DNA of 56,563 nucleotides, taken from Steroidobacteraceae bacterium (lineage in GTDB: Bacteria; Pseudomonadota; Gammaproteobacteria; Steroidobacterales; Steroidobacteraceae). This document shows, in pieces, positions 5,497-48,645 of the stretch (position 1 is the first letter of the stretch; each line of letters opens with the position of its first letter). Position numbers and translations under genes: made by a program. The stretch covers positions 1-56,563 of the forward strand of contig JBOHZO010000159.1 in assembly GCA_050738555.1 (NCBI GenBank), given 5' to 3'. The notes below the pieces were generated by a model. That model did not search any database. It was not told the origin of the DNA and worked only from the letters and a program-made list of their open reading frames with translations.

Positions 5497-5515
5497 ACGG
5501 GCAAGGTGATCCCTG

Positions 5516-6942: not shown

Positions 6943-6953
6943 CGCCCTGCCGA

Positions 6954-34725: not shown

Positions 34726-36668
34726 GGCAGCGCGAACGCGATCAGGTGGTCGCCCTCGCCGAAAATCTCACCACCGCCGGCGGCGACCACGACAAATTGC
34801 CTGCCACCCGCGCGATAGCTGACCGGCGTGGCGCGTGCGCCGGCGGGAAGCTCGGCCCGCCACAACAGTTCACCGGTCTCGACGTCGAACGCGCGAAACG
34901 CCTTTTCGACGGTCGCGCCGATGAACACGAGGCCGCCGGCCGTCGCGATCGGACCACCGAGATTCGGCGAACCGGGCACCGCACCGTCCAGGTGGGTGCC
35001 GAGCGGAACTTCCCAGACTTTTTTCAGATTTAAAAGATCCACGCCGACCAGCGCGCCCCAGGGCGGCGGCGAGCAGAGCGCCCCCGAGGGCGCGCGCAGG
35101 AACCGGCGGCGCATCACGTAGCCGGTGCCGACCATGTTCGTGTACTCGTATCCCTGATTCAGGCGGTCCGATTCCTCTTCCGCCGCGTCGTCGTCGAAAT
35201 CCGCAGGCATCAACTGCACCATCGAAGCGATCGTGTTGACCGGCACAACCGCGATCTGCCGGTCGGAGTTGATCGCCAGCCCGCCCCAGTGCGCGCCGCC
35301 GATGTTGGACGGGCGCACGAGCGTGCCCTGCAGGCTCGGCGGCGTAAAGATGCCTTCGTTGCGGAGTTCCTTGATCAGCGAGCCGCAGACCAGCCGATCG
35401 GCTTCAGCCAGGCCGTCGAGTTCCTTCTCTGCGAGTCCGTGCGGGCTCAACTGGATTGCGCTGAATGGCTGCGTGGCGGAAGCGCGTTCACGCGGCACGT
35501 CGCTCGCGGGGACGGCGCGCTCTTCTACTGGAACCAGCGGCTCGCCGGTCTCGCGGTGCAGCACGAACAGCATGCCGGTCTTCGTCGCTTGCAGGACTGC
35601 CGGGATCGATTCTCCGCCGCGCCGGAGCGTCGCGAGCGCCGGCGGCGCGGCATTGTCGTAGTCCCAGAGATCGTGATGCACGGTCTGGAGATGCCAGGCG
35701 ACTTCACCCGTCGCGGCACGGAGCGCGACGATCGAATTCGCGTAGCGGTTGCTGCCGGGACGCAAGCCGCCGAAGTAGTCGGGTCCCGGGCTCGAAGTCG
35801 GCGCAAAGATCAGGCCTCTCTCGGGATCGGCGACCATCACCGACCAGACGTTGGCGGCGCCGGTCGCCGGCGCGCTGTCATTCTCCCAGGTCGCATAGGC
35901 AGGGTCCTTTGCGTCCTGCGGGATCGGGTCCCAGCGCCAGCGGAGCTTGCCGGTGCGAACGTCGAAAGCGCGGACCTCGCCGCTTGCCGGCGCGATGCGG
36001 CTGTTGTCCGCGATCGCGGAGCCCGTGACGACGAGATCGCCGACCACGAGCGGCGGGGACGTCACCTGGTACGCCGGGAACTCGAATGGCGCATGCCGCA
36101 GGCCCTTGCGCAGATCGATCATGCCCCGCGCACCGAAGTCGCCGCAGGCACGGCCGGTGGCGCCGTCCACCGCGAAGAGCCGCGCATCGATGGTCGCGAC
36201 GAAGATCCGGCGCCGGCAGGGCGAACCCGCCGGCGCCTTGTCGTCGAGCCAGCTGCTGACGCCGCGGTTCGCGAAGTCCCCGTAGTGCGCCTTGCGGCGC
36301 GACTTCGGGTCGAAGCGCCAGCGTTCCGTGCCGGCCGCCGGATCGAGCGCGATCAGCTCGCCGAGCGGTGTCGTGAGATAGAGCGTCCCATCCACCACGA
36401 TCGGCGTCGTTTCGAAGCGCGGGTCTTTGCTGGTCTTGATGCCGCGATGGCCGGTGCGGAATGTCCAGGCGACCGCGAGCCGCGAAACATTGGTGCGATT
36501 GATGTCCGTGAGCGGCGAATAACGCGCGCCGCCCGGGTCGCGGCCGTAGGCGGGCCAGTCGTCGCTTGCGGACTGCGCGGATGCGACCGGTGCTTGCATT
36601 GGAATCGCAAGACACGCGACAAGCATGGCAAGACATGTCGTTGCACAACCTCTCGTTCCGTGCTCCAT
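34722..36668 (-). CDS. PQQ-dependent dehydrogenase (glucose/quinate/shikimate family), periplasmic
   Basis: Start at MEHGTRGCATTCLAMLVACLAIPMQAPVASA (signal peptide; RBS GGGAGG). DDWPAYGRDPGGARYSPL and repeated PQQ beta-propeller motifs. Confidence 0.85.
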   Translation of the reverse strand: MEHGTRGCATTCLAMLVACLAIPMQAPVASAQSASDDWPAYGRDPGGARYSPLTDINRTNVSRLAVAWTFRTGHRGIKTSKDPRFETTPIVVDGTLYLTTPLGELIALDPAAGTERWRFDPKSRRKAHYGDFANRGVSSWLDDKAPAGSPCRRRIFVATIDARLFAVDGATGRACGDFGARGMIDLRKGLRHAPFEFPAYQVTSPPLVVGDLVVTGSAIADNSRIAPASGEVRAFDVRTGKLRWRWDPIPQDAKDPAYATWENDSAPATGAANVWSVMVADPERGLIFAPTSSPGPDYFGGLRPGSNRYANSIVALRAATGEVAWHLQTVHHDLWDYDNAAPPALATLRRGGESIPAVLQATKTGMLFVLHRETGEPLVPVEERAVPASDVPRERASATQPFSAIQLSPHGLAEKELDGLAEADRLVCGSLIKELRNEGIFTPPSLQGTLVRPSNIGGAHWGGLAINSDRQIAVVPVNTIASMVQLMPADFDDDAAEEESDRLNQGYEYTNMVGTGYVMRRRFLRAPSGALCSPPPWGALVGVDLLNLKKVWEVPLGTHLDGAVPGSPNLGGPIATAGGLVFIGATVEKAFRAFDVETGELLWRAELPAGARATPVSYRAGGRQFVVVAAGGGEIFGEGDHLIAFALP

Positions 36669-36672
36669 GGCC

Positions 36673-37179
36673 TTACCTCCCGACCACCCGCATCTGCGCC
36701 TCCGCGAAACGCTGCAGCTTCCCGCCGCGCGCATAACCCTCGACGCGGATCAGGTACGGGCCTTCCGGCAGCATCGACGTGTTGAACGACAGGCGCAGGT
36801 CGTAGTTCGAATCGCGCACCACCTGGTCGGCATGCACGAGCAGGGTGCCGTCGTGCCGCAGCAGGCTCACGCGGAACCGCGAGTGCTGATTGGTCCGTGC
36901 GTTGATCAAGAGGTCGATGCGCTCGGGAAACTGGCCGCCGCCCACTGAGAGGGCACGCGGCGAGCGCGGGTCGATTCGCACGGTGCGGTTCGACGAAGGC
37001 GCTTGCAGGAACCCCACCGCCGCCTGCTGCTCGAGCACTTCGAGCCGATCCTCGGCAACGCCCCAACGCCACGCGACCCAGATGAGTGCCACGGCCAGCG
37101 CGAGCATTGCCGCTGCGGTGCCGACCAGGACCTTGTGTTCCTGGATCTTGTCGATCCAGGGCGAAATTTCGGTAGGCAT
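36673..37179 (-). CDS. Single-pass membrane protein, unknown function; upstream of and co-oriented with the PQQ dehydrogenase
   Basis: Start MPTEISPW (RBS AGGAG). TM segment VLVGTAAAMLALAVALIWVAWRW, about 110-aa C-terminal domain. Its stop is 4 nt from the PQQ-DH start. Confidence 0.6.
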   Translation of the reverse strand: MPTEISPWIDKIQEHKVLVGTAAAMLALAVALIWVAWRWGVAEDRLEVLEQQAAVGFLQAPSSNRTVRIDPRSPRALSVGGGQFPERIDLLINARTNQHSRFRVSLLRHDGTLLVHADQVVRDSNYDLRLSFNTSMLPEGPYLIRVEGYARGGKLQRFAEAQMRVVGR

Positions 37180-37241
37180 TGACCCAACTCCTGGGGCTCG
37201 CCCGTTTATTCTATGCATTCGCCGCCCAAGGAGGGCCTGTC

Positions 37242-38774
37242 ATGCCTGTGCCCGTTGCCCGATCCGGCCTGCTGACGGCCGGTGCCCTGCTCGCACTCAA
37301 TGCCGTCGCCGCCGAGCCGCGGGTTTCGCTCACCGTCTACAGCTCGGCGCAGCCGGGCGGCATCCCCGCGGAGTGGTACCGGCCATTGCCCGGCATGGGC
37401 ACGCCGCAGGCCAGTCAATTGCCGGGCTTCGCGCTGGTGCGGCTCGACCGGGACCTGCAGATCCCGCGCGGGCGCGGAACGATCCAGTTCACGGATGTCG
37501 CGGCGCTCATCGACCCGACGACGGTGCAGTTCCTCTCGCTGACCGATCCGGACGGCACCAGGGTGCTCGAACAGAATTTCCAGTTCGATCTCGTGAGCCA
37601 GGACAAGCTCCTGTCGCGCTACATCGATCGCGAAGTGAGCGTGGAGCAGCAGAGCGGAGACGGCGTCAAGGTGGTCGACGGCACGCTGGTTTCATCGAAC
37701 GACGGACTGGTGCTCCGCGGCTCGGACGGCCAGATTCACGCGCTCCGCGAGTGGAGCAACGTGCGCTTCGGCGAGCTGCCGGGCGGGCTGATCACGCGAC
37801 CGACGCTCGAATGGGACATGCAGTCGGGGCAGGGCGGCGCGCAGCGTGCGCGGGTCTCGTACCAGACGGGCGGCATCACCTGGTGGGCCGATTACAACCT
37901 GATTTTCAGCGAAGGCGCGGACGCAAATTCCGGATTCGTGGATATCGGCGCCTGGGTGAGCCTCCTGAACCAGTCGGGAGCGCGTTATCAGGATGCGAAG
38001 CTGAAGCTCATCGCGGGCGACGTGAACCGCGTCGAAGCGGCGCAGAAGTTTGCCCGCGGGCGCGTCGCGGAAACTTCGTTTATGACTGACGCCGCAGCAC
38101 CCGGCTTCGAGGAAAAAGCCTTCTTCGAATACCACCTCTACACGCTCGGCCGGCCGGCGACCATTCCGAACAACTCGACCAAGCAGATCGAACTCTTCGA
38201 CGCGGCGACCCGGGTACCCGCGAAGAAGCAGCTTGTTTACTACGGCGCAGTTCTCGAGGGGTACTTCGTCTACGGCGCGCCGATGATGGACCGCGAGTTC
38301 GGTCCTGCGTCGAACACCAAGGTGGACGTGTGGCTCAACTTCAAGAACGACAAGGCCTCCGGGATGGGCATGCCGCTGCCTGCCGGGCGGATCCGCGTCT
38401 CGCAGCAGGACAAGGCGGACGGAAGCCTCGAGTTCGTCGGCGAGGACAAGATCGACCACACGCCGAAGGACGAGGACGTGCGCGTGAAGCTCGGAACGGC
38501 GTTCGACGTCGTCGGCGAGCGCCGCCAGACGGATTTCCGGATCAATACCAGCGGCAAGGTCATGGAGGAAGCGTTCGAGATCAAGGTCCGGAACCACAAG
38601 GACCAGCCGGTCGAAGTGATCGTTCGCGAAAACCTGTATCGCTGGAGCCAGTGGACGCTGATCGAGCAGTCGATGCCGCCGGTCAAGAAAGACGTGCGGA
38701 CGGTCGAGTTTCCGGTGCGGATCGCCGCGGACGGCGAGGCGACTGTGACTTACCGCGTGCGCTACAACTGGTGA
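37242..38774 (+). CDS. Exported conserved protein, DUF4139-like (tentative)
   Basis: RBS AAGGAGGG, signal peptide MPVPVARSGLLTAGALLALNAVAAEP. About 510 aa, beta-rich. Family assignment is from memory of DUF4139/DUF4140 proteins. Confidence 0.6.
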   Translation: MPVPVARSGLLTAGALLALNAVAAEPRVSLTVYSSAQPGGIPAEWYRPLPGMGTPQASQLPGFALVRLDRDLQIPRGRGTIQFTDVAALIDPTTVQFLSLTDPDGTRVLEQNFQFDLVSQDKLLSRYIDREVSVEQQSGDGVKVVDGTLVSSNDGLVLRGSDGQIHALREWSNVRFGELPGGLITRPTLEWDMQSGQGGAQRARVSYQTGGITWWADYNLIFSEGADANSGFVDIGAWVSLLNQSGARYQDAKLKLIAGDVNRVEAAQKFARGRVAETSFMTDAAAPGFEEKAFFEYHLYTLGRPATIPNNSTKQIELFDAATRVPAKKQLVYYGAVLEGYFVYGAPMMDREFGPASNTKVDVWLNFKNDKASGMGMPLPAGRIRVSQQDKADGSLEFVGEDKIDHTPKDEDVRVKLGTAFDVVGERRQTDFRINTSGKVMEEAFEIKVRNHKDQPVEVIVRENLYRWSQWTLIEQSMPPVKKDVRTVEFPVRIAADGEATVTYRVRYNW

Positions 38775-39583
38775 GGATCGATCGAAAGCGCCGCGCCGAC
38801 GCGGAGCCGTTCGCCGACGCCCGCTACCAGGGTGCAGTTCTGCCCGAAAGTGACGCCGTTGAGCGTGTAATCGTGGCGGTACTTGCCGAGGGCGCGCAAT
38901 GGCTGCTGATGCGCGTCACGCTCGCCGCTCAGCTGATCGGTGGTCGTGACCGCGCAGCGGGTGCAGAGCCTGACCCCCCGCAGCACGATTGAATCACTGC
39001 GAAAAAGTGTCATCGCGTCTTCCGCATGCGCCGGGACTCCTTCGATCACGAGATTCGGCCGGAAGCGCGCCATCGGGATCGGCTCCGGCAGCCGGCGGTT
39101 CAGTTCCGCGAGCGACTCGTTCGAGATCATCAGGATCGGATAGCCGTCCGCGAAAGTGACAGGCTGCGGCTGCGATCCCGCGTATTTCGGATTGGCGAGG
39201 CGCGGCGCCGCGGGGTCGACTCGAACGAGCCGGACGGTGTCGTCGAGGACACGTGACAGCCAGGCGGCCGCTTCGTCGCCGGCGTCGATCCCCAGGCACT
39301 CGTCAGCCCAGATCCGCACGCGCCGCGATACGCCCGCGTGATTCACATCCAGGGTGAGCGGCGCATGGCCGGCTGCCGAGAGGCGGAGCTTTCCATCGCC
39401 GACCGACACCGTGATGGTTGCGAGCCTCGGGTGCGATCGCTGGGTGATGAATTGATCCGGCGGCTGGATGATCATCCAGCGGCGATCCCACTCGGGGCCG
39501 GTCGGCGTCATCAGCGTCGATTCGATGTCGATGCCGCGGCAGGACTTCACCGGATAGATGTGCAGGCTCGCGATTCTGGCCAT
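38762..39583 (-). CDS. MOSC domain protein (MOSC_N beta-barrel + MOSC, YcbX-like but without the ferredoxin domain)
   Basis: MARIASLHIYPVKSCRG... and the conserved Cys context LCTRCAVTT. ATG at 39583 with GAGG overlapping the stop codon of the upstream CHAT gene. Confidence 0.85.
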   Translation of the reverse strand: MARIASLHIYPVKSCRGIDIESTLMTPTGPEWDRRWMIIQPPDQFITQRSHPRLATITVSVGDGKLRLSAAGHAPLTLDVNHAGVSRRVRIWADECLGIDAGDEAAAWLSRVLDDTVRLVRVDPAAPRLANPKYAGSQPQPVTFADGYPILMISNESLAELNRRLPEPIPMARFRPNLVIEGVPAHAEDAMTLFRSDSIVLRGVRLCTRCAVTTTDQLSGERDAHQQPLRALGKYRHDYTLNGVTFGQNCTLVAGVGERLRVGAALSIDPHQL

Positions 39584-39593
39584 GCGCAATGCC

Positions 39594-42398
39594 TCAGGTC
39601 TTCGGCGCCTTCAACGTGAAGTCGAAGCTGCCGTAGTGCAGGTAGTTCGCCCAGTCGGCGGAGGGCAGCCCGCGGACCGCGGCGCGGGCAGCGTTGAGTG
39701 CGGCGCCGATTGAATCGCCCTTGGCGAGGTCGCTATAGAGCGTTGCGGCGAAGGCGGTCGCCGCCGTGTCGGAAACCGGCCACCAGGTGCCGATGAAATT
39801 CGCGACACCGCCGCGCAGGAAAGCTTCGGCGAATCCCACGCTGCGGTCGAGCTGCCGGAGCGGATTGACCGTCGCGCGGAGCCGCCCCGATTCGCAGGCG
39901 TTGAAGAAGACGAGCGCCGGCACTGAATCCATCGCCGCGAGGTCTGCGCCGGACAGCACGCGCCCGCCCGCGCAGAGGATGCCGCTCGAGGCCGGCGCCG
40001 CGGCATCGAACCAGGCGTGGCCCGCAAAATGGATGGCGTCGTAATCGCCGGAGCGGAACTCTGCGAGGAGGCGCGCGCGCGTCGCGTCCGCGTCGCGAAT
40101 GGCGGTGATCCCCGCGCCGGGGAGTTGCGCGAGCATGGCAGCGACGCGCTCGCCTTCCTCGACCGCGCCCGGCAGGTCGCCGGTCGGATTGATCACGAGC
40201 AGCACGTTGAATTCGCGCGCGCGGCGGCGCTGCTCGCGCCACTTCGCGACCGACATGCCTTCCGCGGCATAGCGGCGGCTGAGTCCCATGGCCGCGGCCG
40301 GCGCCCAGCCCCTGAGGCTCAGGACTTCCCAGGGCCAGTGCGCGCTCGCCGTGTCGTGCACCACGACGAGCGGCGCATTCTTCACGGATGGGAGGGCCTC
40401 TGCGATTTCTTCCGGCAGCAGCAACTCCGCCAGCCTCTGCCCGAACTCCTCCAGTTCACCGATGCCCATGCCGGGCACGAGACGCGAGTGCTCGCGTTCG
40501 AGCAGCCGCAGGTCGAGCCGGCGGCTGGCGACGAGGGCGGTCGCTTTCGGCGCGGGGCCCAGCAGCGCGACGCGGAGATGCGCGGCAGATTCCTGCACGA
40601 AGAGCCAGGCGAGCGGCGTCGCCGTCGGCTTCTCGACGCGTGCGGGCTTGCGCGAGGGCTTGCGCTGCGGCGCGAGGCGCAGGAGCGGCGCGGCCGGATG
40701 CAGCCGCAGCAGATCCTCGGCCACACGGCGCGCCGTGGCGAGGCGATCGCTACTCCGCGACACGACGGTAATGCGCCGCAGCCGCTGTTCGGGCGCGAGA
40801 TCGCTCAATGCCGTCAGCACGCCCTCGAGTTGCGCGCGCGCGGCATCCGCCGGCTCGGCGCCCGAGGCCGTGCCCCAGAGCACCATCGAAAAGTTCTCGA
40901 CCCCGGCGAGCGCGAGCGTGCGGGTCACGTTCGCCGCCGCCAGGCGCTGAACGTCCGGACCATAGCGGCCGAAATGGCCCAGTCCCGCGAACACGACGAG
41001 CCGCGGCACGAGCCCGCGCCGTCCGACCGGCAGCACGAAGACCTCGCCGGCCGCCGCGCTGATCGCGCGCCGGCGCGCCAGGTCGCTGATTGCGCCGTGC
41101 AGCATTCGGTCGATCGCCTGCGCCGCGCCCGCGGGCTCGACGTTCGCGAAGGCGCCGAGCACGATCGCGGTGCTGCCACTCTGCGTGATGCTGCCCTCCA
41201 TGAATGAAAGCTCGACGGGCTTGACGACCGCCTTGCGTTTCGGCGTGATCGCGACGGTCGAGGTCTGTGTGACGCCGACGAACTCGTGCAGGAACTCGCG
41301 TTGCTCGCGCTCGGAGAGATCATTCCAGGCGATCTTGGGTGCGGGCCCCGCGCGCAGGTCCTCCTGCCACAGCGTCGGCACGCCGCGGTGGCGCGGCAAC
41401 ACGCGCGGCAAGGCATTCGTCGAATCGCCGCGCGCGAGATCGGTGACGGCTCGGCCAACTTCGGCGTTGCCAGGCAGCGAGCCGTGGCTTTCTTCGGTGT
41501 ACCAGGTCTTGAGATTCGGCCACTGCGCGAGCGCGAGGGGCACCGTGCCGTCGCCCGCCGGGCCGCGTCCGAACTCCAGCTTGCGGTTGATGCGGCGAAG
41601 TCCCAGCACCGTGTCCTGGCCGAAGCCTGCGATCAGCCGGAAGCGCTCGTCAGGCGGCGGCAGGGCCTTGATGGCCTCGTGCGCTTCCTCGAGCAGGTCC
41701 GCAGCCGGCTTCGGCCCGTCGGGCCACTGTTCGGCATCGAATGGATCGAAATCCTTGCAGAGGTTGGCCGCGGGAAGCATTCCGCAGAGTCCCGGCAGGG
41801 TCGTCATCATCTTGCGCGCGAGATCGTCCGCGCTGTGCTTGAGATCGAGCATCGAGATCCGGCGGATCAAGGGGTAAGTGCCGCGCAGGGCCTGCACCGC
41901 GACGAATACGCCTTTGTTCGGCGTACCGAGCTGGATCACGCGGCTGATGCGCTCCGCGCCCTTGTTCGCAAGCGCTGCGCGCGCGACGAGCCCACCCATG
42001 CTGTGGCCGACGAGCACGATGTCCTGGCGGCGCTCGCGCAGCAGCCGGTCGGCGAGCTCGCGGCCGTTCCAGAGCATGTCGCGGCGCCAGTCGTAGGGAT
42101 GGAACGCGGCGTCGAAGCCGGCGATGCGCAGCACGAGCCGCAGGCGCTCGTAGGCGAATCGCAGCACGCCGAGTGCCCAGTAACGGCTGCCGCCTGGCAA
42201 GGCGAGCTTGACGAGCTGCCCCTGCGCGATTTCGACCGGGTCGAACCAGGTGACGTCCATGCCGCCGTTCTTGCGCAGCCGCCCGATGCTCGAACCCATG
42301 ATGCCGGGAAGGATCAGGAGTCGCGGGCCGCCGCGCATGCCCGCCGCGCGCCGCGCCAGCCGCGACAGCTCTTGATCGGCTTCGAGGTATGCGGGCAT
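39594..42398 (-). CDS. 934-aa fusion protein: LCAT/PGAP1-like alpha/beta-hydrolase (lipase) + M17_N/macro-like domain + C-terminal CHAT (caspase-like) protease
   Basis: N-terminus: HPYDWR (aa 100-105), nucleophile elbow VGHSMGG (Ser133), GDGTVP, EESHGSL. Middle (about aa 395-520): IVLGAFAN..AAQAIDRMLHGAISDLARRR..GEVFVLP..PRLVVFAGLGH aligns by eye with the E. coli PepA N-domain. C-terminus: AIHFAGHAWFD ... ALVFFNACESG is the CHAT His/Cys dyad. Confidence 0.8.
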   Translation of the reverse strand: MPAYLEADQELSRLARRAAGMRGGPRLLILPGIMGSSIGRLRKNGGMDVTWFDPVEIAQGQLVKLALPGGSRYWALGVLRFAYERLRLVLRIAGFDAAFHPYDWRRDMLWNGRELADRLLRERRQDIVLVGHSMGGLVARAALANKGAERISRVIQLGTPNKGVFVAVQALRGTYPLIRRISMLDLKHSADDLARKMMTTLPGLCGMLPAANLCKDFDPFDAEQWPDGPKPAADLLEEAHEAIKALPPPDERFRLIAGFGQDTVLGLRRINRKLEFGRGPAGDGTVPLALAQWPNLKTWYTEESHGSLPGNAEVGRAVTDLARGDSTNALPRVLPRHRGVPTLWQEDLRAGPAPKIAWNDLSEREQREFLHEFVGVTQTSTVAITPKRKAVVKPVELSFMEGSITQSGSTAIVLGAFANVEPAGAAQAIDRMLHGAISDLARRRAISAAAGEVFVLPVGRRGLVPRLVVFAGLGHFGRYGPDVQRLAAANVTRTLALAGVENFSMVLWGTASGAEPADAARAQLEGVLTALSDLAPEQRLRRITVVSRSSDRLATARRVAEDLLRLHPAAPLLRLAPQRKPSRKPARVEKPTATPLAWLFVQESAAHLRVALLGPAPKATALVASRRLDLRLLEREHSRLVPGMGIGELEEFGQRLAELLLPEEIAEALPSVKNAPLVVVHDTASAHWPWEVLSLRGWAPAAAMGLSRRYAAEGMSVAKWREQRRRAREFNVLLVINPTGDLPGAVEEGERVAAMLAQLPGAGITAIRDADATRARLLAEFRSGDYDAIHFAGHAWFDAAAPASSGILCAGGRVLSGADLAAMDSVPALVFFNACESGRLRATVNPLRQLDRSVGFAEAFLRGGVANFIGTWWPVSDTAATAFAATLYSDLAKGDSIGAALNAARAAVRGLPSADWANYLHYGSFDFTLKAPKT

Positions 42399-42419
42399 CG
42401 CGCGATTCTACCGGTGCGC

Positions 42420-42570
42420 GTCTTAAAGGGGACGTCGTCTTAAAGGGGACGTTCACCTTTACGTCTTAAAGGGGACGTTCACCTTTAATTTGGCCAGAGT
42501 CGAACAGGATCGCCGTTATCCCGATTAAAGGTGAACGTCCCCTTTAAGACGAAGACGTCCCCTTTAAGAC
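42420..42570. repeat. Dispersed palindromic repeat, locus 4: nested compound palindrome (5 core copies)
   Basis: gtcttaaaggggacgtc (42420-36) pairs with gacgtcccctttaagac (42554-70). Tandem gtcttaaaggggacgttcaccttta (42437-61) and cgtcttaaaggggacgttcacctttaa (42462-88) both match ttaaaggtgaacgtcccctttaagac (42525-50). The central spacer is 36 nt. Confidence 0.9.
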
Positions 42571-42603
42571 GCCCTTTAATACGCGCGCCATTAGAATGCC
42601 GCC

Positions 42604-44208
42604 GTGGACACGTTCGCGAAGGACCGGTTGCCGCCGAATGAAATGTGGCCGAGGCTGCATTTTGACCTGCCAGAGTTGCGTTACCCCGATCGGCTGAATT
42701 GCGCGACGGTGCTGCTGGACGATGCCGTCGCCGAGGGTCATGGCGAGCGGCCGGCGATTCTGACCGCCACCGGGACCATCACATATCGTGAGCTGCTCGG
42801 CCGCGCGAACCGCATCGCCAACGTGCTGACGGGAGCGGGCGTTGCCCCGGGCAACCGGGTGCTGCTTCGCGGCTACAACGGCCCGGAGATGTATGCCGCC
42901 TGGCTTGCGGTGATGAAGACGGGCGCGATCGCAGTCACCACGATGCCGATGCTGCGCGCGCCGGAACTCACCGCGATCGTCGCAAAAGCGCGCCCCGCGT
43001 TCGCACTCTGCGATCACCGCCTCCAGAGCGAGCTGCAGGCGGTCACCGCGGAGGGCGGCGTCGGAACGACCGTCACCTGGGGCGCCGGCGATCTCGAAGC
43101 ACGCACGGCGATGGCTTCCGACCGTTTCGTCAATGCCGATATCGCGGCGGACGACGTCTGCTTGCTCGCCTTCACTTCCGGCACGACCGGCCAGCCCAAG
43201 GCCTGCGCGCACTTCCACCGGGACGTGCTCGCGATGGCGGATGTGGTCGCGCGCCACTTGCTGCACACGGCGCCGGATGACGTCTACGCCGGCAGCCCGC
43301 CGCTGGGATTTACCTTCGGGCTCGGGGCGCTGCTCGTCTTCCCGCTGCGCTTTCGCGCGGCGACCGTGCCGATCGAAGCGCCCGCGCCGGCGACGGTCCT
43401 CGCCGCGATCGAGCGCCACCGCGTGACCTGCCTCTTCACCGCGCCCCTCGCCTATCGCGGGCTCGCTGCCGAGCTCGCAGGCCGCGATCTCTCCTCACTC
43501 AAGCGCTGCGTCTCCGCGGGCGAGTTCCTGCCAAAGTCCGTGTCCGACGCGTGGTTCGAGAAAACCGGCATCCGCATCATCGACGGCATCGGTGCCACGG
43601 AGATGATCCACATCTTCATCTCCGCGAGCGGCGACGAGATCCGTCCCGGTTCGACCGGCAAGCCGCTGCCTGGGTACCGGGCCTGCGTGCTCGACGACGA
43701 CGGCAAGCCCTTGCCGCCCGGCAGCACCGGCCGCCTCGCGGTGACCGGGCCGACGGGCTGCCGCTATCTCGACGATGAACGCCAACGCGACTACGTCGTG
43801 GACGGCTGGAACGTCACGGGCGACCTCTACCGCGTTGACGAGGACGGCTACTTCTGGTTCGTATCGCGCGCTGACGACATGATCGTCTCGGCCGGCTACA
43901 ACATCGCTGGCCTGGAGGTGGAATGGGCGCTGCTCGCGCACCCGGCGGTCCGCGAGTGCGCCGTGATCGGCGCGGCGGACCCCGAGCGCGGCACGATCGT
44001 GAAAGCCTGCGTCGTGCTCGCCGCGGGCAGGGCGGGGGACATCGCGCTCGTCAAGGAGCTCCAGGACTTCGTGAAGCAGCGCATCGCGCCCTACAAGTAC
44101 CCGCGGGCGATCGAGTTTCTCGAGACGCTCCCGAAGACCGCGACCGGCAAGCTCCAGCGCAAGGCGCTCCGCAAATTGGGCGTCGCATCGCAGTTTCCGC
44201 CCAATTAG
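42604..44208 (+). CDS. Aryl-CoA ligase (2-aminobenzoate/benzoate-CoA ligase family, AMP-binding)
   Basis: 534 aa, GTG start. FTSGTTGQPKA AMP-binding motif and C-terminal PKTATGKLQR. The N-terminus is typical of aminobenzoate-CoA ligases. Confidence 0.8.
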   Translation: MDTFAKDRLPPNEMWPRLHFDLPELRYPDRLNCATVLLDDAVAEGHGERPAILTATGTITYRELLGRANRIANVLTGAGVAPGNRVLLRGYNGPEMYAAWLAVMKTGAIAVTTMPMLRAPELTAIVAKARPAFALCDHRLQSELQAVTAEGGVGTTVTWGAGDLEARTAMASDRFVNADIAADDVCLLAFTSGTTGQPKACAHFHRDVLAMADVVARHLLHTAPDDVYAGSPPLGFTFGLGALLVFPLRFRAATVPIEAPAPATVLAAIERHRVTCLFTAPLAYRGLAAELAGRDLSSLKRCVSAGEFLPKSVSDAWFEKTGIRIIDGIGATEMIHIFISASGDEIRPGSTGKPLPGYRACVLDDDGKPLPPGSTGRLAVTGPTGCRYLDDERQRDYVVDGWNVTGDLYRVDEDGYFWFVSRADDMIVSAGYNIAGLEVEWALLAHPAVRECAVIGAADPERGTIVKACVVLAAGRAGDIALVKELQDFVKQRIAPYKYPRAIEFLETLPKTATGKLQRKALRKLGVASQFPPN

Positions 44209-44237
44209 TTGACATTTAAACTATTCAGGCCTGTAAT
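44209..44237 (+). promoter_or_regulatory. Near-consensus sigma70 promoter (TTGACA-17 bp-TGTAAT) between the ligase and monooxygenase genes
   Basis: ttgaca at 44209-44214, 17-bp AT-rich spacer, tgtaat at 44232-44237, 23 nt before the GTG at 44261. The spacer carries the dyad tcaggcctg(t). Confidence 0.45.
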
Positions 44238-44260
44238 GCTGCCGGCATGGACAGGCGCCC

Positions 44261-46543
44261 GTGAAACGCATCGTCTGCCTCGGCGGCGGACCGGCGGGAC
44301 TTTATTCCGCCATCCTGTACCGCAAGGCCCTGCCGCGGGCACGGGTCGAGGTCTACGAGCGCAACCGCCCCGATGACACATTCGGCTGGGGCGTCGTGTT
44401 CTCGGACCGGACGATGGAGGGCTTCCAGGCCGCCGATGCGCCCTCGCATGCCGCGATCACCGGCAGTTTTCATCACTGGGACGACATCGACGTGCACTAC
44501 CGCGGCACGACGACGACCACAGGCGGTCACGGCTTCTGCGGCATCGAGCGGAAGCGCCTCCTCAACATCCTCCAGGAGCGCGGAGCGGAGCTCGGCGTCG
44601 CACACCACTTCCAGCGCGAGATCGAGGACGATGCGGCTTTTGCCGACGCCGACCTGATCGTCGCCGCCGACGGCGTCAACAGCCGCACGCGCAAGCGCTT
44701 CGACGCCGTGTTCGAGCCGGACATCGACACGCGCGAATGCCGCTTCATCTGGCTCGGCACGACGAAGCCATTCCCGGCCTTCACTTTCGCCTTCGAGGAA
44801 ACCGGGCACGGCTGGTTCCAGATTCACGCCTACCAGTTCAGCAAGACGCTTTCGACCGTGATCGTCGAGACCCGCGAGGAGACATGGCTCGCGCACGGGC
44901 TCGACCGCGCCGATCACGAGCAGTCGATCGCCTTCTGCGAGCAGCTCTTCGCGAAGTACCTCGGCGGCCACAAGCTCATGAGCAACGCGGCGCATCTGCG
45001 CGGCTCCGCCTGGCTCAACTTCCAGCGCGTCCTCTGCCAGCGCTGGCATCACGGCAACCGCGTGCTGATCGGCGACGCCGCGCACACGGCGCACTTTTCG
45101 ATCGGTTCCGGAACGAAGCTCGCGATGGAAGACGCGATCGCGCTCGTCGCCCGCACCGCGGGTGCCGCCGACATTCCGGCAGCACTCGCCGACTACCAGG
45201 AAGAGCGCTCGACCGAGGCGCTGAAGCTCCAGAGCGCGGCGCGAAACCGCATGCGCTGGTTCGAGGACGTCGCCCGCTACACGCGGCTCGAGCCCTGGCA
45301 GTTCACCTACAGCCTGTTGAGCGGCAGCCAGCGGATCGGCCACGCGAATCTGAAGCTCCGCGACCCGGCCTTCGTCGCCGACGTCGAGGCACGACTTGCG
45401 TCCCGCGTTGGAGTGCTGAAACCGCGTCCGCCGATGTTCCTGCCGTTTCAGGTGCGCGGCCTCAGCCTCGAGAACCGGATCGTGGTCTCGCCGATGGCGC
45501 AGTACTCGGCGCAGGACGGCATGCCGCAAGACTGGCATCTCGTGCACCTCGGGTCGCGCGCGACCGGCGGGGCGGGCCTCGTGTTCACGGAGATGAACTG
45601 CGTGTCGCCCCAGGGCCGCATTTCGCCGGGATGCTCCGGTTTATGGAACGAGGCGCAGCGCGATGCCTGGCGGCGCATCGCGGAATTCGTGCATCGGCAC
45701 AGCCGGGCCAGGCTCTGCATGCAGCTCGGGCATTCGGGCCGCAAGGGCTCGACGCAGCTCGGCTGGGAGGACGACGATCATCCGCTCAAGGAAGGCAACT
45801 GGGAGACCATCGCGCCGTCGCCGCTGCCGTATTTCGACGGCATCAGCGCGCCGCCGCGCGAGATGACGCGTGCCGACATGGATCGCGTGCGGTCCGAGTT
45901 CGTGCGTAGCGCCCGATTCGCCGACGAGGCGGGTTACGACATGCTCGAGCTCCATATGGCGCACGGTTACCTGCTCGCGAGTTTCCTGTCGCCGCTCACC
46001 AACCGGCGGAAGGACCCGTACGGCGGCTGCGTCGCGAACCGCCTGCGATTCCCGCTCGAAGTGCTCGCCGCGGTGCGCGCGGCCTGGCCGGAAGAAAAGC
46101 CGCTTTCCGTCCGCCTCTCCTCGAGCGACTGGGCGAAGGGCGGCCTGGGTGAAGACGAACTCCTGGAGATCGCCCGGGCGATGAAGTCCGGCGGCGCCGA
46201 CATGCTCGATCTCTCGAGCGGCCAGACCGTACCCTGGCAGAAGCCGGTCTATGGGCGCATGTGGCAGACGCCGTTCTCGGATCTCGTCCGCAATGTCGTC
46301 GGGATTCCGACGATCGCGGTCGGCAACATCTACGAACCGGATCACGCGAACTCGATCATCGCTTCCGGGCGCGCCGACCTCTGCGCGCTCGCGCGGCCCC
46401 ACCTGGCGGATCCCGCGTGGACGCTCCGCGCCGCCGCGGAACAGCGCTGGCCAGATCAATGGTGGCCGCCGCAGTACGAGTCCGCGAAGCTTCAGCTCGA
46501 ACGCAATCTCGAGCGGGCGGCACTGACGGCCGGGCCGGTTTAG
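44261..46543 (+). CDS. Bifunctional FAD monooxygenase / Old-Yellow-Enzyme reductase (2-aminobenzoyl-CoA monooxygenase/reductase; salicylyl-CoA 5-hydroxylase family)
   Basis: 760 aa. N-terminal [14 protein letters not shown] (GxGxxG) aromatic-ring hydroxylase, [14 protein letters not shown]-terminal OYE TIM barrel ([12 protein letters not shown]..., HMAHGYLL). Confidence 0.85.
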
Positions 46544-46562
46544 GTTCCGCAAGGAGAACTCC

Positions 46563-47333
46563 ATGACGCAGGAACTCGCAGGCCGGCATGCCCTGGTGAC
46601 GGGCGGCGGGCGCGGCATCGGGGCCGCGATCGCGCAGGCGCTTTCGGCGGCCGGCGCGCGCGTGACCCTGCTTGGCCGGACGACGGCGCAGCTCGATGAA
46701 ACGGCGATCGGGATGGCCGGCAGCACGGTCACCGTCACCGCGGATGTCACCGATCCGAAGCAGGTCGGGCGCGCCTTCGCCGAAGCGCGAAATGCCGCGG
46801 GCGAAGTCTCGATCCTCGTCAACAACGCCGGCCGGCCCGCGAGCCGGCCGCTGGCGAAGAGTGATGAGGATTTTTGGCGTCAGATACTGGAGGTGAACCT
46901 GACCGGGACCTATCACTGCACGCGCGCCGCGATCCCGGCCATGCTTGCGGCCAACTGGGGCCGCATCGTGAACGTGTCGAGCACGGCGGGACTGCGCGGC
47001 TACGCGTACTGCACGGCTTACTGCGCGGCCAAGCACGGCGTCATCGGCCTGACGCGCGCGCTCGCGCTCGAAGTCGCAAAGACCGGCATCACCGTGAATG
47101 CCGTCTGTCCCGGATACACCGACACGGGCGTGGTGCGGGATGCCATTCGCAGCATCAGCGAAAAAACGGCCCGCAGCGAAGCCGACGCGCGCGGGACGCT
47201 CGTGTCATTCAACCCGCAGCAACGACTGGTGAAGCCCGAAGAAGTCGCGAACGCGGTCCTCTGGCTCTGCCGCCCAGGCAGCGAGAGCGTCACCGGGCAG
47301 AGCATTGCGATCGCCGGCGGCGAGGTCACCTGA
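46563..47333 (+). CDS. SDR-family oxidoreductase (3-hydroxyacyl-CoA dehydrogenase-like)
   Basis: 256 aa, RBS AAGGAG. TGGGRGIG cofactor motif and catalytic YCAAKHG. Confidence 0.85.
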   Translation: MTQELAGRHALVTGGGRGIGAAIAQALSAAGARVTLLGRTTAQLDETAIGMAGSTVTVTADVTDPKQVGRAFAEARNAAGEVSILVNNAGRPASRPLAKSDEDFWRQILEVNLTGTYHCTRAAIPAMLAANWGRIVNVSSTAGLRGYAYCTAYCAAKHGVIGLTRALALEVAKTGITVNAVCPGYTDTGVVRDAIRSISEKTARSEADARGTLVSFNPQQRLVKPEEVANAVLWLCRPGSESVTGQSIAIAGGEVT

Positions 47334-47824
47334 TGGCTCGACGCACGATGGATGCGGAAACGCGCGCCGCCCGCGACGACCACGGCGCGATCCGCCTGTG
47401 GCTCCGGATGCTGGCGACGAACCGGCTGGTCGAGACGCGGACCCGGCGGATGCTGCAGGAACGTTACGCGACCACCCTGCCGCGCTTCGACCTGATGGCG
47501 CAGCTCGAGCGGATGCCCCGGGGCCTCAAGATGGGCGAGCTGTCGAGGCGCATGATGGTGACTGGCGGCAATGTGACCGGCATTACCGACATGCTGGAAG
47601 ATGAGGGCCTGGTCGAGCGTGTCGCCGATCCGGGCGACCGCCGCGCCTGGGTCGTGCAATTGACACCGGCGGGCCGACGGGCGTTTACCGCGATGGCACA
47701 GGAGCATGAGCGCTGGATCGTCGAGTCGTTCGCGGAACTGTCGGGCCGCGAGATGTCGACCATGGCGGCGCTGCTCGCGCGGCTGAAGACGCATGTCCGT
47801 TCACTGGAGGAGCGGGACACATGA
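47333..47824 (+). CDS. MarR-family transcriptional regulator embedded in the operon
   Basis: 163 aa. [57 protein letters not shown] is a winged HTH. TGATG overlap upstream and ATGA overlap downstream. Confidence 0.85.
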
Positions 47825-48645
47825 AGACCGAGATTCCGGACCTGACCGGCTATCAGGCGAAGCATTTTCTCTGGCACGTGGAGAACCGCGTCGGTCACCT
47901 GACGCTGAACCGGCCGGAGAAGAAGAATCCGCTGACCTTCGAGTCGTACGCGGAATTGCGCGACCTGTTCCGGCTGCTGGCGGATGGTTGCGGCGTACGG
48001 GCCGTCGTCATCGACGGCGCCGGCGCAAATTTCTGCTCGGGCGGCGACGTGCAGGAAATCATCGGGCCGTTGACCCAGATGGACGAGAAGGGTCTGCTCG
48101 AATTCACGCGCATGACGGGCGACCTGATCCGCGCGATGCGCGGCTGCCCGCAACCGCTCATCGCCGCCATCGACGGCATCTGCGCGGGCGCGGGCGCGAT
48201 GATCGCGCTCGCTTCGGATTTCCGCATCGCGACGCCGGCGGCGCGAACCGCATTCCTGTTCGTGCGTGTGGGCCTCGCGGGTTGCGACATGGGCGCCTGC
48301 GCGCTGCTGCCGCGGCTCATCGGCCAGGGACGCGCGGCGGAGCTGCTCTACACCGGCCGGGCTTTCGACGCCGCGGAAGGGGAGCGCATCGGCTTCCATC
48401 ATTCGGTCGTCGCGCCGGAAGCGCTCCTGCCCGCGGCGATGAAGCTCGCGGCGGAACTCGCTTCGGGACCGACGCTCGCGCACGCGCTGACGAAGAGGAT
48501 GCTGCATCTCGAATGGAACATGAGCGTCAACGAGGCGTTGGATGCGGAGGCGCGCGCGCAGGCGAGCCTGATGCGGAGCAACGACTTCCGGCGCGCCTAC
48601 GAGGCTTTCTCGAAGAAACAGAAACCGGTCTTCGAAGGAGACTGA
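47821..48645 (+). CDS. Enoyl-CoA hydratase/isomerase (crotonase) family protein
   Basis: 274 aa. [14 protein letters not shown] and FCSGGDV are crotonase motifs. Confidence 0.85.

What the first reader, a model, noticed from the sequence alone, without database searches (positions are those of the whole stretch)
39594..42398. 934-aa single-polypeptide lipase / macro-like / CHAT-protease fusion: candidate conflict-system or regulated effector
**Three modules**
- aa ~25-330: an LCAT/PGAP1-like alpha/beta-hydrolase (HPYDWR, GHSMGG with Ser133, GDGTVP, HGS). This is a phospholipase/acyltransferase-type module.
- aa ~395-520: a region that aligns by eye with the N-terminal macro-fold domain of M17 leucyl aminopeptidase. 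Compare IVLGAFAN..AIDRMLHGAISDLARRR..GEVFVLP..RLVVFAGLG with PepA IVVGVFEP..QLDKISDGYISALLRRG..GQTLLLH..RILLIGCG.
- aa ~640-930: a CHAT caspase-like protease with the His (HFAGHA) and Cys (FFNACESG) dyad.

**Why it matters.** CHAT proteases are recurrent in prokaryotic conflict systems, for example type III CRISPR-associated proteases, gasdermin-activating proteases and NTPase-based systems. Here there is no sensor NTPase, CRISPR or gasdermin partner. A membrane-attacking lipase is instead fused in cis, possibly with a nucleotide/ADP-ribose-binding macro-like sensor between the two.

**Context.** The gene is bounded by the largest repeat cluster (42420-42570) and by a co-transcribed MOSC gene.
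Basis: partly seen in the sequence, partly recalled or inferred. Interest (0 to 1): 0.7.

Follow-up and report, generated by a model that had tools for sequence, protein, structure and literature searches.

The report
Lipase–macro-like–CHAT protease fusion protein
This gene encodes a large cytoplasmic protein that joins a lipase, a macro-fold domain and a caspase-like (CHAT) protease; it belongs to a widespread, unstudied family that looks built for regulated self-destruction or defence, although here it sits as a stable core-chromosome gene, not in a defence island.

Summary
The 934-aa ORF (39594-42398, minus strand) has three modules: an LCAT/PGAP1/Tle4-like lipase-type hydrolase, an M17_N-type macro-fold domain and a CHAT protease. 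Pfam, a confident AlphaFold model and Foldseek all support them. Ser133-Asp283-His305 and His794-Cys835 are invariant in 146 homologs. It belongs to a large, apparently undescribed family: 1,040 clusters at E<=1e-30 and relatives in 265 GTDB species, spread patchily over at least 10 phyla.

The M17_N+CHAT pair is a constant core. It also occurs alone, or with a TIR or caspase head instead of the lipase. The same lipase head also occurs fused to a trypsin-like protease. This modularity, and some TIR-rich neighbourhoods, fit conflict or regulated-cell-death logic.

The window's copy, however, lies in core chromosome with conserved synteny across Steroidobacteraceae and evolves as slowly as its neighbours. 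No partner gene is conserved, and no phage or viral-contig relatives were found. ADP-ribose sensing by the middle domain is not established. The flanking repeat is a dispersed REP-like element. MOSC linkage is lineage-specific.

Most likely this is a self-contained protease-gated lipase effector.

The parts
39594..42398 (-). Complete 934-aa ORF (about 101 kDa, pI 9.8, no signal peptide, no TM helix)
   Evidence: 98% identical to a protein of Steroidobacteraceae MAG LejiaA_66_279
41283..42335 (-). N-terminal head, aa 22-372: lipase-type alpha/beta hydrolase (LCAT/PGAP1/Tle4-like). Oxyanion motif LPGIMGS (aa 30-36), nucleophile Ser133 (codon 42000-42002), Asp283 (41550-41552), His305 (41484-41486)
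   Evidence: Pfam; family profile against PDB lipases: 7x2p E 1.6e-8, BlEst2 2.8e-8, Tle4 5.6e-5, LPLA2 3e-3; Foldseek Tle4 and LCAT, target-normalised TM 0.44-0.47; triad invariant in 146 sequences
41223..41282 (-). Interdomain linker, aa 373-392. The only long disordered segment; variable in length, Pro/Ala-rich, ending in a basic patch (KRK 387-389; 'GRRRQHR' in distant homologs). This is the boundary where the head is swapped or absent in other family members
   Evidence: pLDDT <50 for 375-390; alignment of the linker; head-swap boundaries
40674..41222 (-). Middle domain, aa 393-575: macro fold of the M17 leucyl-aminopeptidase N-domain type. Invariant P422, G424, G435, R443, R444, G451, P457, G472, G474, R493, G526
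   Evidence: Pfam PF02789; Foldseek to LAP N-domains and to stand-alone macro domains (TTHA0132 target-normalised TM 0.86, YmdB, O. iheyensis macrodomain with ADPR); profile against PDB sequences; conservation
40449..40673 (-). Bridge region, aa 576-650: beta-strands 597-627 plus helices that connect the macro-like domain to CHAT. No Pfam match; part of the conserved core
   Evidence: secondary structure and pLDDT; covered by core-only homologs
39627..40448 (-). CHAT caspase-like cysteine protease, aa 651-924. Dyad His794 (codon 40017-40019; His790 is also invariant) and Cys835 (39894-39896); a flexible loop 836-843 follows the Cys
   Evidence: Pfam CHAT 113 bits; Foldseek to DdvA CHAT, separases and the SAVED-CHAT filament at E 1e-9 to 1e-6; PADLOC BovA and SAVED_CHAT partial hits; invariance
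38762..39589 (-). Downstream MOSC_N+MOSC gene, 4-10 nt after the stop codon and probably co-transcribed. The linkage is lineage-specific and not part of the family-wide unit
   Evidence: MOSC is adjacent in 17 close loci plus 1 intermediate locus and in none of 22 distant loci; MOSC evolves faster (68% against 84% mean identity)
42419..42583 (.). Upstream intergenic nested palindromic array of the motif CGTCTTAAAGGGGACGT. It is a dispersed REP-like element, not a dedicated operator
   Evidence: 12 copies at 4 sites in the window against 0.07 expected; absent from syntenic loci of related genomes

Best explanation
The gene encodes a cytoplasmic, self-contained 'effector - regulator - protease' protein. 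The N-terminal head is a catalytically competent lipase or phospholipase-type serine hydrolase. A disordered linker ending in basic residues tethers it to a conserved core made of a macro-fold (M17_N-type) domain and an active CHAT caspase-like protease.

Shown: the architecture, the intact active sites, the family's size and spread, the modular core with swappable heads, the lack of any conserved partner gene, and the stable vertical inheritance in Steroidobacteraceae.

Inferred: the core acts as a switch. The macro-like domain either binds a small ligand or drives oligomerisation, as LAP N-domains do in hexamers and as SAVED does in SAVED-CHAT filaments. That turns on the CHAT protease. The protease then activates or releases the fused head, most simply by cutting in or near the linker, and may also cleave other targets. 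The freed lipase attacks membrane phospholipids, causing growth arrest or cell death.

In other family members the same core would gate a TIR NADase or a caspase. In Steroidobacteraceae the module has been retained as a core gene, which suggests a regulated physiological or stress-triggered death or defence role and not a fast-turnover phage-defence cassette.
For: All three modules are supported by Pfam, a pLDDT-89 model and Foldseek. The triad and dyad are invariant in 146 sequences down to 41% identity.

The family is large: 16,991 hits, 1,040 representative clusters at E<=1e-30, and more than 100 full-length architectures. Relatives occur in 265 GTDB species, including Nitrospira, Chloroflexota, Acidobacteriota, Planctomycetota, Gemmatimonadota, Desulfobacterota and Verrucomicrobiota.

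The core occurs alone (L091, with no head-like DNA), with a TIR head (P0385, on 4 independent contigs), or with a caspase C14 head (P0359). The same head is also fused to Trypsin_2 or embedded in a larger CHAT protein.

The only long disordered segment lies exactly at the head/core boundary. No neighbour is conserved across phyla. Defence-like contexts exist for some members: a TIR-rich island in N. defluvii, an AAA_21 ATPase plus TIR plus SLOG neighbourhood around the TIR-headed variant, and SIR2_2-pYEATS plus an endonuclease next to the Rhizobium copy.

Precedents from the literature: SAVED-CHAT activates PCaspase by cleavage, and a Macro domain senses His-ADPR in type II Thoeris. Kaur et al. 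2020 noted an obligate alpha/beta-hydrolase-caspase pairing in conflict systems.
Against: This copy and its clade sit in conserved, housekeeping-type synteny. The gene diverges no faster than its neighbours, which is atypical for defence genes.

Neighbourhoods of 22 distant homologs are mostly metabolic, with only sporadic defence hits. No relatives were found on phages or viral contigs, and only a few on large plasmids.

Alternative heads are rare among the 150 best representatives (2 of 150). Two apparent variants turned out to be frameshift artefacts.

No cleavage site, ligand or oligomeric state could be tested. By sequence the macro-like domain is closest to LAP N-domains, which are not known ligand sensors. 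The lipid substrate is inferred only from homology.
Confidence: 0.5

Rival explanations
1. Housekeeping or physiological enzyme. The protein performs a regulated but non-lethal cellular task, for example membrane-lipid or lipoprotein remodelling, or turnover under stress. CHAT would handle maturation or quality control and the macro-like domain would handle assembly. The resemblance to conflict systems would reflect shared domains only.
For: Conserved synteny over all close homologs on long contigs. Same divergence as FtsX, DUF4139 and FAD-OYE neighbours, and slower than MOSC. The window is core chromosome: hemE, gltA, ponA-pilMNOPQ-aroK-aroB. Neighbours elsewhere are mostly metabolic. No phage or viral carriage.
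Against: The distribution is patchy over at least 10 phyla and the context differs in each, which implies horizontal transfer of a self-sufficient unit. The lipase head is replaced by TIR or caspase in relatives, which is hard to reconcile with one metabolic role. Defence-like contexts exist for several members.
Confidence: 0.3
2. Two-enzyme processing machine. The alpha/beta hydrolase is not a membrane-attacking lipase. It acts together with the CHAT protease on one shared protein, peptide or acylated substrate (esterase or deacylase plus endopeptidase), as proposed for the hydrolase-caspase gene pairs of VMAP/MoxR-vWA systems. Neither domain would be the 'effector' of the other.
For: Kaur et al. 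[quoted passage not shown] The same head is also fused to a trypsin-like protease, so hydrolase+protease is a recurrent pair. The Pfam hits to LCAT and PGAP1 cover only the nucleophile-elbow region.
Against: The best sequence and fold matches of the head are true lipases and phospholipases. The core functions without any hydrolase in stand-alone, TIR-headed and caspase-headed members, so the hydrolase is dispensable to the core. No MoxR, vWA or VMAP genes are nearby.
Confidence: 0.12
3. Exported anti-competitor toxin. The head would be a Tle-like lipase delivered by a secretion system, and CHAT would act as a maturation or auto-release protease in the target or during export.
For: The head resembles the T6SS phospholipase Tle4 by sequence and fold. 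A Tle1-like gene lies in the N. defluvii neighbourhood.
Against: There is no signal peptide and no TM segment. There are no VgrG, PAAR, Hcp or immunity-type genes next to the gene in the window or in the surveyed loci. The context is a conserved core chromosome region.
Confidence: 0.03

Closest known systems
SAVED-CHAT protease of type III-B CRISPR systems (PDB 8tl0) and its PCaspase cascade
   Same: A sensor or regulatory domain sits N-terminal to an active CHAT protease. Activation is by ligand-driven oligomerisation, and CHAT then cleaves and activates a downstream death effector (text quoted). Foldseek hit at E about 7e-7; PADLOC SAVED_CHAT partial hit. The caspase-headed relative P0359 resembles that cascade fused into one chain.
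   Different: There is no SAVED domain; a macro-fold M17_N-type domain takes its place. There are no CRISPR or CD-NTase genes nearby. The effector is fused in cis. The ligand and the oligomerisation are untested.
Borvo (BovA), a single-gene CHAT anti-phage system
   Same: A single-gene unit containing a CHAT protease. The PADLOC BovA model matches at E 3.9e-11.
   Different: The match covers only 156 of 711 model positions, which is the CHAT core. The N-terminal architecture is not shared, so this is not a BovA orthologue.
Thoeris type II (Macro-domain effector) and type IV (TIR + caspase-like ThsE)
   Same: A macro fold can act as a receptor for a TIR-made ADPR derivative, and a caspase-like protease can act as an executioner. 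Relatives of this protein carry a fused TIR or sit among TIR genes.
   Different: No TIR gene is adjacent in the window. The presumed sensor of the type IV caspase is a C-terminal unknown domain, not an N-terminal macro fold. The macro-like domain here belongs to the LAP N-domain branch.
alpha/beta-hydrolase-caspase pairing in VMAP / MoxR-vWA ternary conflict systems (Kaur et al. 2020, PMC7159879)
   Same: A caspase-superfamily peptidase is obligatorily coupled to an alpha/beta hydrolase, with trypsin as the alternative peptidase. Here the coupling is a fusion, and the same head also occurs fused to trypsin.
   Different: No MoxR, vWA, VMAP or NTPase components are present. Homology between the two hydrolase families was not tested. 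Here an M17_N macro-like domain lies between the two enzymes.
M17 leucyl aminopeptidase N-terminal domain (PepA, P. aeruginosa and P. putida LAPs); Pfam Macro clan CL0223
   Same: This is the best sequence-profile match of the middle domain (E 2e-4 to 9e-3) and a structural match (rmsd about 3 A over 180 columns). PF02789 is listed in the Macro clan.
   Different: No M17 catalytic domain follows; a CHAT protease does. The protein is therefore not an aminopeptidase.
Tle4 (T6SS phospholipase effector, PDB 4r1d), LCAT and LPLA2
   Same: The head shares the PGIMGS-type oxyanion motif, the GHSMGG nucleophile elbow and the overall fold.
   Different: It is cytoplasmic, has no secretion-system or immunity-gene context, and is fused to a protease core.
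Separase, and the DdvA anti-sigma factor CHAT domain (PDB 8rot)
   Same: These are the top Foldseek matches for the C-terminal half (E about 1e-9). They share the caspase-hemoglobinase fold and the His/Cys dyad.
   Different: Their biological contexts are unrelated (cohesin cleavage; a transmembrane anti-sigma factor) and their N-terminal regions differ.

Membership tests
CHAT domain proteases (Pfam PF12770; caspase/separase clan) | Profile match above the curated threshold over the whole domain | tested here: met
   113.4 bits against a cut-off of 24; profile positions 2-289 of 289
CHAT domain proteases (Pfam PF12770; caspase/separase clan) | Conserved catalytic His and Cys | tested here: met
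   H794 (also H790) and C835 are invariant in 146 homologs. Assignment of H794 as the catalytic His is by analogy with the caspase 'GH' motif (own knowledge).
CHAT domain proteases (Pfam PF12770; caspase/separase clan) | Caspase/separase-like fold | tested here: met
   Foldseek: DdvA CHAT 1.3e-9, separases 2e-9 to 1e-7, SAVED-CHAT 7e-7, on a pLDDT-89 model
CHAT domain proteases (Pfam PF12770; caspase/separase clan) | Proteolytic activity and cleavage specificity | not testable with these tools
   Requires biochemistry
Lipase-type alpha/beta hydrolases (LCAT PF02450 / PGAP1 PF07819 / Tle4-like) | Profile matches above curated thresholds | tested here: met
   PGAP1 32.6 against 24.3, LCAT 28.1 against 21, Abhydrolase_6 34.9 against 26.3. 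The LCAT and PGAP1 matches cover only the nucleophile-elbow region. Family profile against PDB lipases reaches E 1.6e-8.
Lipase-type alpha/beta hydrolases (LCAT PF02450 / PGAP1 PF07819 / Tle4-like) | Ser-Asp-His triad and oxyanion motif | tested here: met
   S133, D283, H305 and G32/G35/S36 are invariant in 146 sequences
Lipase-type alpha/beta hydrolases (LCAT PF02450 / PGAP1 PF07819 / Tle4-like) | Lipid (phospholipid or acyl-ester) substrate | not testable with these tools
   Inferred only from the nearest relatives being lipases and phospholipases
Macro clan / Peptidase_M17_N (PF02789) | Profile match above threshold, and a macro fold | tested here: met
   40.3 bits against 23.4. Foldseek: TTHA0132 target-normalised TM 0.86, YmdB 0.75-0.78, LAP N-domains rmsd about 3 A.
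Macro clan / Peptidase_M17_N (PF02789) | ADP-ribose (or derivative) binding, as in MacroD, Af1521 or the Thoeris II Macro | tested here: inconclusive
   The profile reaches Af1521 only at E about 0.4, against 2e-4 for LAP N-domains. Gly-rich loops are conserved (G424; G509/S512/G513), but they differ from the canonical GGG and GIxG motifs (own knowledge). No coordinates were available for pocket analysis.
M17 leucyl aminopeptidases | C-terminal M17 catalytic (di-zinc) domain | tested here: not met
   No Peptidase_M17 catalytic domain. NCBIfam LAP models score 12-17 bits against cut-offs of 415-826.
Borvo (BovA) | Full-length match to the BovA model | tested here: not met
   Only model positions 512-667 of 711 align
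SAVED-CHAT (type III CRISPR / CBASS-associated) | SAVED sensor domain, and a CRISPR or CD-NTase neighbourhood | tested here: not met
   No SAVED domain. The PADLOC SAVED_CHAT hit is limited to aa 855-921. No cas or cyclase genes in the window.
Thoeris type IV (TIR + caspase-like ThsE) | Adjacent TIR gene, and a caspase with a C-terminal sensor domain | tested here: not met
   No TIR gene in the window. Domain order differs from ThsE as described. No ThsE model or sequence was available for direct comparison.
T6SS Tle lipase effectors | Genomic linkage to VgrG, PAAR or Hcp and a cognate immunity gene | tested here: not met
   None found in the window or in surveyed loci
VMAP / MoxR-vWA ternary conflict systems | MoxR AAA+ and vWA genes plus a VMAP component next to the hydrolase-caspase pair | tested here: not met
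   No such genes among the window's ORFs or among 117 neighbours of distant homologs

The most novel reading that the evidence does not exclude
The M17_N-type macro domain is a previously unrecognised receptor for a nucleotide-derived signal, for example a TIR-made ADPR derivative. Ligand binding assembles and switches on the adjacent CHAT protease, which then cuts the linker and releases a fused death effector: a lipase here, TIR or caspase in relatives. This would be a complete sensor-protease-executioner immune or cell-suicide pathway in a single polypeptide, and one that has been domesticated as a core gene in Steroidobacteraceae.
Probability: 0.2. Interest if true: 0.8.

Novelty: new variant of a known kind. 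Interest (0 to 1): 0.55.

Why it matters
CHAT and caspase-like proteases are emerging as central switches of bacterial immunity and regulated cell death (Craspase, SAVED-CHAT to PCaspase, type IV Thoeris, gasdermin activation). Every characterised case depends on separate partner proteins.

This family would be a partner-free, single-chain version that couples such a protease directly to a lipase, or to TIR or a caspase in relatives, through a new regulatory domain of the macro fold. It is abundant in soil and freshwater bacteria, including the nitrifier Nitrospira and cultured Rhizobium, and I found no paper describing it.

If the gating model holds, it gives a compact system for studying protease-controlled effector release. 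It would add a possible new class of signal receptor, and it would be an example of a conflict-type module being retained as a stable core gene.

Tried and rejected
1. The first AlphaFold job used a shallow 29-sequence alignment and gave pLDDT 61. I discarded it in favour of the 146-sequence model.

2. A 'split' hydrolase gene plus core gene in Nitrospira (L089) looked like Rosetta-stone evidence. It is a 1-nt frameshift: the conserved motif GGRQG|KELTEQEI continues in the other frame. Rejected.

3. The 843-aa 'other N-terminus' variant (P0402 in L090) is also a frameshifted hydrolase head. Rejected. P0323, P0340, P0341 and P0356 are likewise probably truncated heads: phmmer detects head residues in them.

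4. The palindromic repeat upstream as a dedicated operator: rejected. It is a dispersed REP-like element.

5. A functional link to MOSC: the adjacency is confined to the close clade, so it is not part of the family-wide unit.

6. Membership in Borvo, SAVED-CHAT, type IV Thoeris, Tle effectors or VMAP systems: the defining features are not met.

7. Carriage on phages, viral contigs or mobile plasmids: none or negligible.

8. A single-sequence phmmer search of the CHAT region against the PDB was uninformative.

9. Interdomain geometry, pocket analysis and linker docking could not be done, because model coordinates are not exposed.

10. Literature searches for the architecture found no description. 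One of them was poorly targeted.


Full report
**1. Observation**

The ORF is real but lies on the minus strand: ATG at 42398, TGA at 39594-39596, 934 aa. Pfam supports all three modules above curated thresholds:
- CHAT, aa 651-924: E 1.8e-32, 113 bits against a cut-off of 24, with full profile coverage.
- Peptidase_M17_N, aa 413-530: E 3.6e-10, 40.3 bits against 23.4.
- Lipase-type alpha/beta-hydrolase families around the GHSMGG elbow: PGAP1 32.6 against 24.3, LCAT 28.1 against 21, Abhydrolase_6 34.9 against 26.3.

NCBIfam gives only sub-threshold LAP and esterase hits. PADLOC matches only the CHAT part of BovA (Borvo) and of SAVED_CHAT. The protein has no signal peptide and no TM helix (maximum 19-residue hydropathy 1.48). 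It is about 101 kDa with pI 9.8.

**2. Structure**

A shallow alignment gave a poor model (pLDDT 61). A 146-sequence alignment spanning 41-93% identity gave pLDDT 89.1 and pTM 0.66. Only two segments fall below pLDDT 50: residues 375-390, the linker between head and core, and residues 836-843, a loop just after Cys835.

Foldseek against the PDB matched each part separately:
- The C-terminal half matches the DdvA CHAT domain, separases and the SAVED-CHAT filament (E 1e-9 to 1e-6).
- The middle domain matches LAP N-domains (rmsd about 3 A over 180 columns). It also matches true stand-alone macro domains: TTHA0132 (target-normalised TM 0.86), YmdB, and the O. iheyensis macrodomain with ADPR.
- The head matches the T6SS phospholipase Tle4, LCAT and a Bacillus lipase.

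The family profile searched against PDB sequences puts the head among lipases: 7x2p at 1.6e-8, BlEst2 at 2.8e-8, Tle4 at 5.6e-5 (including the PGIMG oxyanion motif), family I.2 lipases at about 3e-4, and LPLA2 at 3e-3.

A profile of the middle domain finds LAP N-domains at E 2e-4 to 9e-3, but the Af1521 macro domain only at about 0.4. So the fold is macro, and PF02789 is in Pfam's Macro clan. ADP-ribose binding, however, is not established.

**3. Conservation**

Invariant in all 146 sequences:
- Head: G32, G35, S36, H132-S133-x-G135-G136, G282-D283, H305.
- Macro-like domain: P422, G424, G435, R443, R444, G451, P457, G472, G474, R493, G526.
- CHAT: P689-W690-E691, H790, H794, N833-A834-C835, E858, R862-G863-G864, D877, D915.

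Both enzymes are therefore predicted to be active.

**4. Family size and spread**

The window is 98% identical to a Steroidobacteraceae MAG. An exhaustive phmmer search of 1.84 billion representative proteins gave 16,991 hits, of which 1,040 score E<=1e-30. More than 100 representative clusters are full-length three-module proteins.

In GTDB species representatives, 265 species encode a relative. These fall into three groups:
- A close clade at 76-98% identity (Steroidobacteraceae).
- A clade at 54-61% identity (other Gammaproteobacteria MAGs).
- Full-length homologs at 40-44% identity in Nitrospira (including N. defluvii), Chloroflexota, Gemmatimonadota, Acidobacteriota, Planctomycetota, Desulfobacterota and Verrucomicrobiota.

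Database names are generic, such as 'CHAT domain-containing protein', 'alpha/beta fold hydrolase' and 'pimeloyl-ACP methyl ester carboxylesterase'. I found no paper describing the architecture.

**5. Modularity**

Of the 150 best representatives, 117 have head plus core. About 20 look like stand-alone cores (M17_N+CHAT, 550-670 aa). Two carry other heads:
- P0385 is TIR_2 + M17_N + CHAT. It occurs on four independent contigs.
- P0359 is caspase C14 + M17_N + CHAT.

tblastn confirms that the stand-alone (L091), TIR-headed (L092) and caspase-headed (L094) loci contain no hydrolase-head DNA.

The reverse swap also occurs. The same head is fused to Trypsin_2 in a Qingshengfaniella plasmid protein. 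It is also embedded in a 1,789-aa DUF7379x2 + LCAT-like + CHAT protein of Paracoccus yeei.

Two apparent variants were artefacts, and I withdraw them as evidence. The 'split' Nitrospira locus L089 is a 1-nt frameshift. The 843-aa P0402 is a frameshifted head.

The head/core boundary coincides with the disordered linker. The linker is variable and Pro/Ala-rich, and it ends in a basic patch: KRK here, GRRRQHR in distant members.

**6. Context**

In the window the gene lies between a divergently transcribed aromatic-acyl-CoA-type cluster and a set of downstream genes:
- Upstream, divergent: AMP ligase, a FAD-monooxygenase-OYE fusion, SDR, MarR, enoyl-CoA hydratase and acyl-CoA dehydrogenase.
- Downstream: MOSC, DUF4139, a 181-aa ORF, a PQQ dehydrogenase, an FtsX/ABC transporter, a TesA-like GDSL lipase and FadD.

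The rest of the window is core chromosome: hemE, citrate synthase, ponA-pilMNOPQ-aroK-aroB, rdgB and yicC. It has only isolated, generic PADLOC hits.

The same synteny holds on Mb-scale contigs of homologs at 79-85% identity. It holds partly at 59% identity.

Identity to the window across the clade is 77-98% for this gene (mean 84%). That matches FtsX (86%), DUF4139 (83%) and FAD-OYE (86%), and is higher than MOSC (68%). This indicates vertical inheritance under strong purifying selection.

MOSC is immediately downstream in 17 close loci plus 1 intermediate locus only. Among 117 ORFs flanking 22 distant homologs, no family recurs in more than 4, and defence-model hits are sporadic.

Some members do sit in conflict-type surroundings:
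- N. defluvii: three TIR-WD40 or TIR-AAA genes, a CAP12-type TIR, a Tle1-like lipase, GDPD, another TIR and a transposase.
- The TIR-headed variant: an AAA_21/AAA_15 ATPase pair, TIR_2 plus a SLOG-type LD_cluster3, and a metallo-beta-lactamase-fold gene.
- R. leguminosarum GLR17: SIR2_2-pYEATS and a non-specific endonuclease.
- One MAG: a 928-aa patatin gene directly downstream.

No relatives were found in 50,697 phage genomes or in IMG/VR. There were only 8 plasmid hits, mostly on large non-mobilizable replicons.

**7. The flanking repeat**

The intergenic region 42419-42583 holds nested palindromes of CGTCTTAAAGGGGACGT. The core motif occurs 12 times at four separate intergenic sites in the window, against 0.07 expected. 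It is absent from syntenic loci of related genomes. It is therefore a species-specific REP-like element and not a regulator of this gene.

**8. Interpretation**

The domain logic argues that the core is a protease switch gating a fused effector. The supporting features are a constant M17_N+CHAT core, interchangeable death-type heads (lipase, TIR, caspase), a flexible tether at the swap point, no conserved partner, and a patchy phyletic spread.

This is analogous to SAVED-CHAT activating PCaspase by cleavage. It also parallels the hydrolase-caspase pairs noted in NTP-dependent conflict systems.

The role of the macro-like domain is inferred. It could be a ligand receptor, as the Macro domain is in type II Thoeris. 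It could equally be an oligomerisation scaffold, as the N-domain is in LAP hexamers (own knowledge).

Against a classical defence-cassette reading, this copy is a stably inherited core gene. I therefore rate the protease-gated lipase effector with a conflict or regulated-cell-death role at about 0.5. A non-lethal physiological role rates about 0.3, a joint hydrolase+protease processing machine about 0.12, and an exported toxin about 0.03.

**9. Verdict**

The protein is made of known domains, and it follows a known principle (a CHAT protease with a regulatory domain and an effector). The single-chain arrangement and the M17_N-type macro domain as CHAT partner appear undescribed, so I class it as a new variant of a known kind. 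Interest is 0.55. It is a large, testable, uncharacterised family relevant to bacterial caspase-like immunity. It has no experimental anchor, however, and this copy sits in a housekeeping-like context.

Noticed in passing
window 6245-6329, 24911-24940, 42419-42583, 50246-50332: A dispersed AT-rich palindromic REP/MITE-like element (core TTAAAGGGGACG) in a 67% GC genome. There are 12 copies at four intergenic sites against 0.07 expected, arranged as inverted or nested hairpins. It is absent from syntenic loci of related genomes.
   Followed up: partly
window 42604-49832 (+ strand): An aromatic-acyl-CoA-type catabolic cluster, divergent from the CHAT gene: AMP-dependent ligase, a 760-aa FAD_binding_3 + Oxidored_FMN (OYE) fusion, SDR, MarR, enoyl-CoA hydratase and acyl-CoA dehydrogenase. 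It resembles 2-aminobenzoyl-CoA/salicylyl-CoA monooxygenase-reductase loci (resemblance from own knowledge) and is conserved in L001.
   Followed up: no
window 34722-36734 (-): A PQQ-dependent dehydrogenase (PF01011, E 1e-216) lies between the 181-aa ORF and the FtsX permease. It is missing at this position in the otherwise syntenic L001 and L002, so it is a lineage-specific insertion. It was found in only 8 loci.
   Followed up: no
window 36673-38774: A DUF4139 protein (531 aa) and a divergent 181-aa ORF with no Pfam hit form a pair that stays next to the FtsX/ABC/TesA/FadD block. The pair is retained even in the 59%-identity locus L005, where MOSC is replaced.
   Followed up: no
L086 (Nitrospira defluvii-type contig) 1-17800: A dense conflict-type island around the homolog: TIR-WD40 proteins, TIR_2+AAA, a T6SS_Tle1-like lipase, a CAP12-PCTIR TIR, GDPD, a small TIR_2 protein, an rve transposase and a large WD40 protein.
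   Followed up: partly
L092 5140-11311 and 200-2196: The TIR-M17_N-CHAT variant is flanked by a 612-aa AAA_21/AAA_15/AAA_23 ATPase, a 318-aa unknown protein and a metallo-beta-lactamase-fold gene. A TIR_2 plus LD_cluster3 (SLOG) pair lies nearby. This may be a multi-gene defence locus.
   Followed up: partly
L095 5833-8355; L097 4426-9795: The same lipase-type head occurs fused to a Trypsin_2 protease (840 aa, Qingshengfaniella plasmid). It also occurs inside a 1,789-aa DUF7379x2 + LCAT-like + CHAT protein (Paracoccus yeei plasmids). So hydrolase+protease fusions recur with different proteases.
   Followed up: partly
L089 7900-8010; L090 7510-8753: Single-nucleotide frameshifts in long MAG contigs split or truncate the gene. 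They create false 'two-gene' and 'novel N-terminus' variants. This is a caution for any architecture census of this family.
   Followed up: yes
L096 9234-11193 (Rhizobium leguminosarum GLR17 plasmid p1): A SIR2_2 + prokaryotic-YEATS protein and a DNA/RNA non-specific endonuclease lie directly downstream of the full-length homolog in a cultured strain. The strain could serve as an experimental host.
   Followed up: partly
protein P0114 (723 aa): One homolog is annotated with M17_N + CHAT + MOSC_N. This is either a read-through or frameshift fusion with the downstream MOSC gene, or a real fusion. I did not examine it.
   Followed up: no
window, ORF not identified: One window ORF matches the PADLOC model mad3 at E 6.7e-30. 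Others match mad8, PDC-M21C and AriA weakly. These are probably generic housekeeping homologs, but the ORFs responsible were not identified.
   Followed up: no
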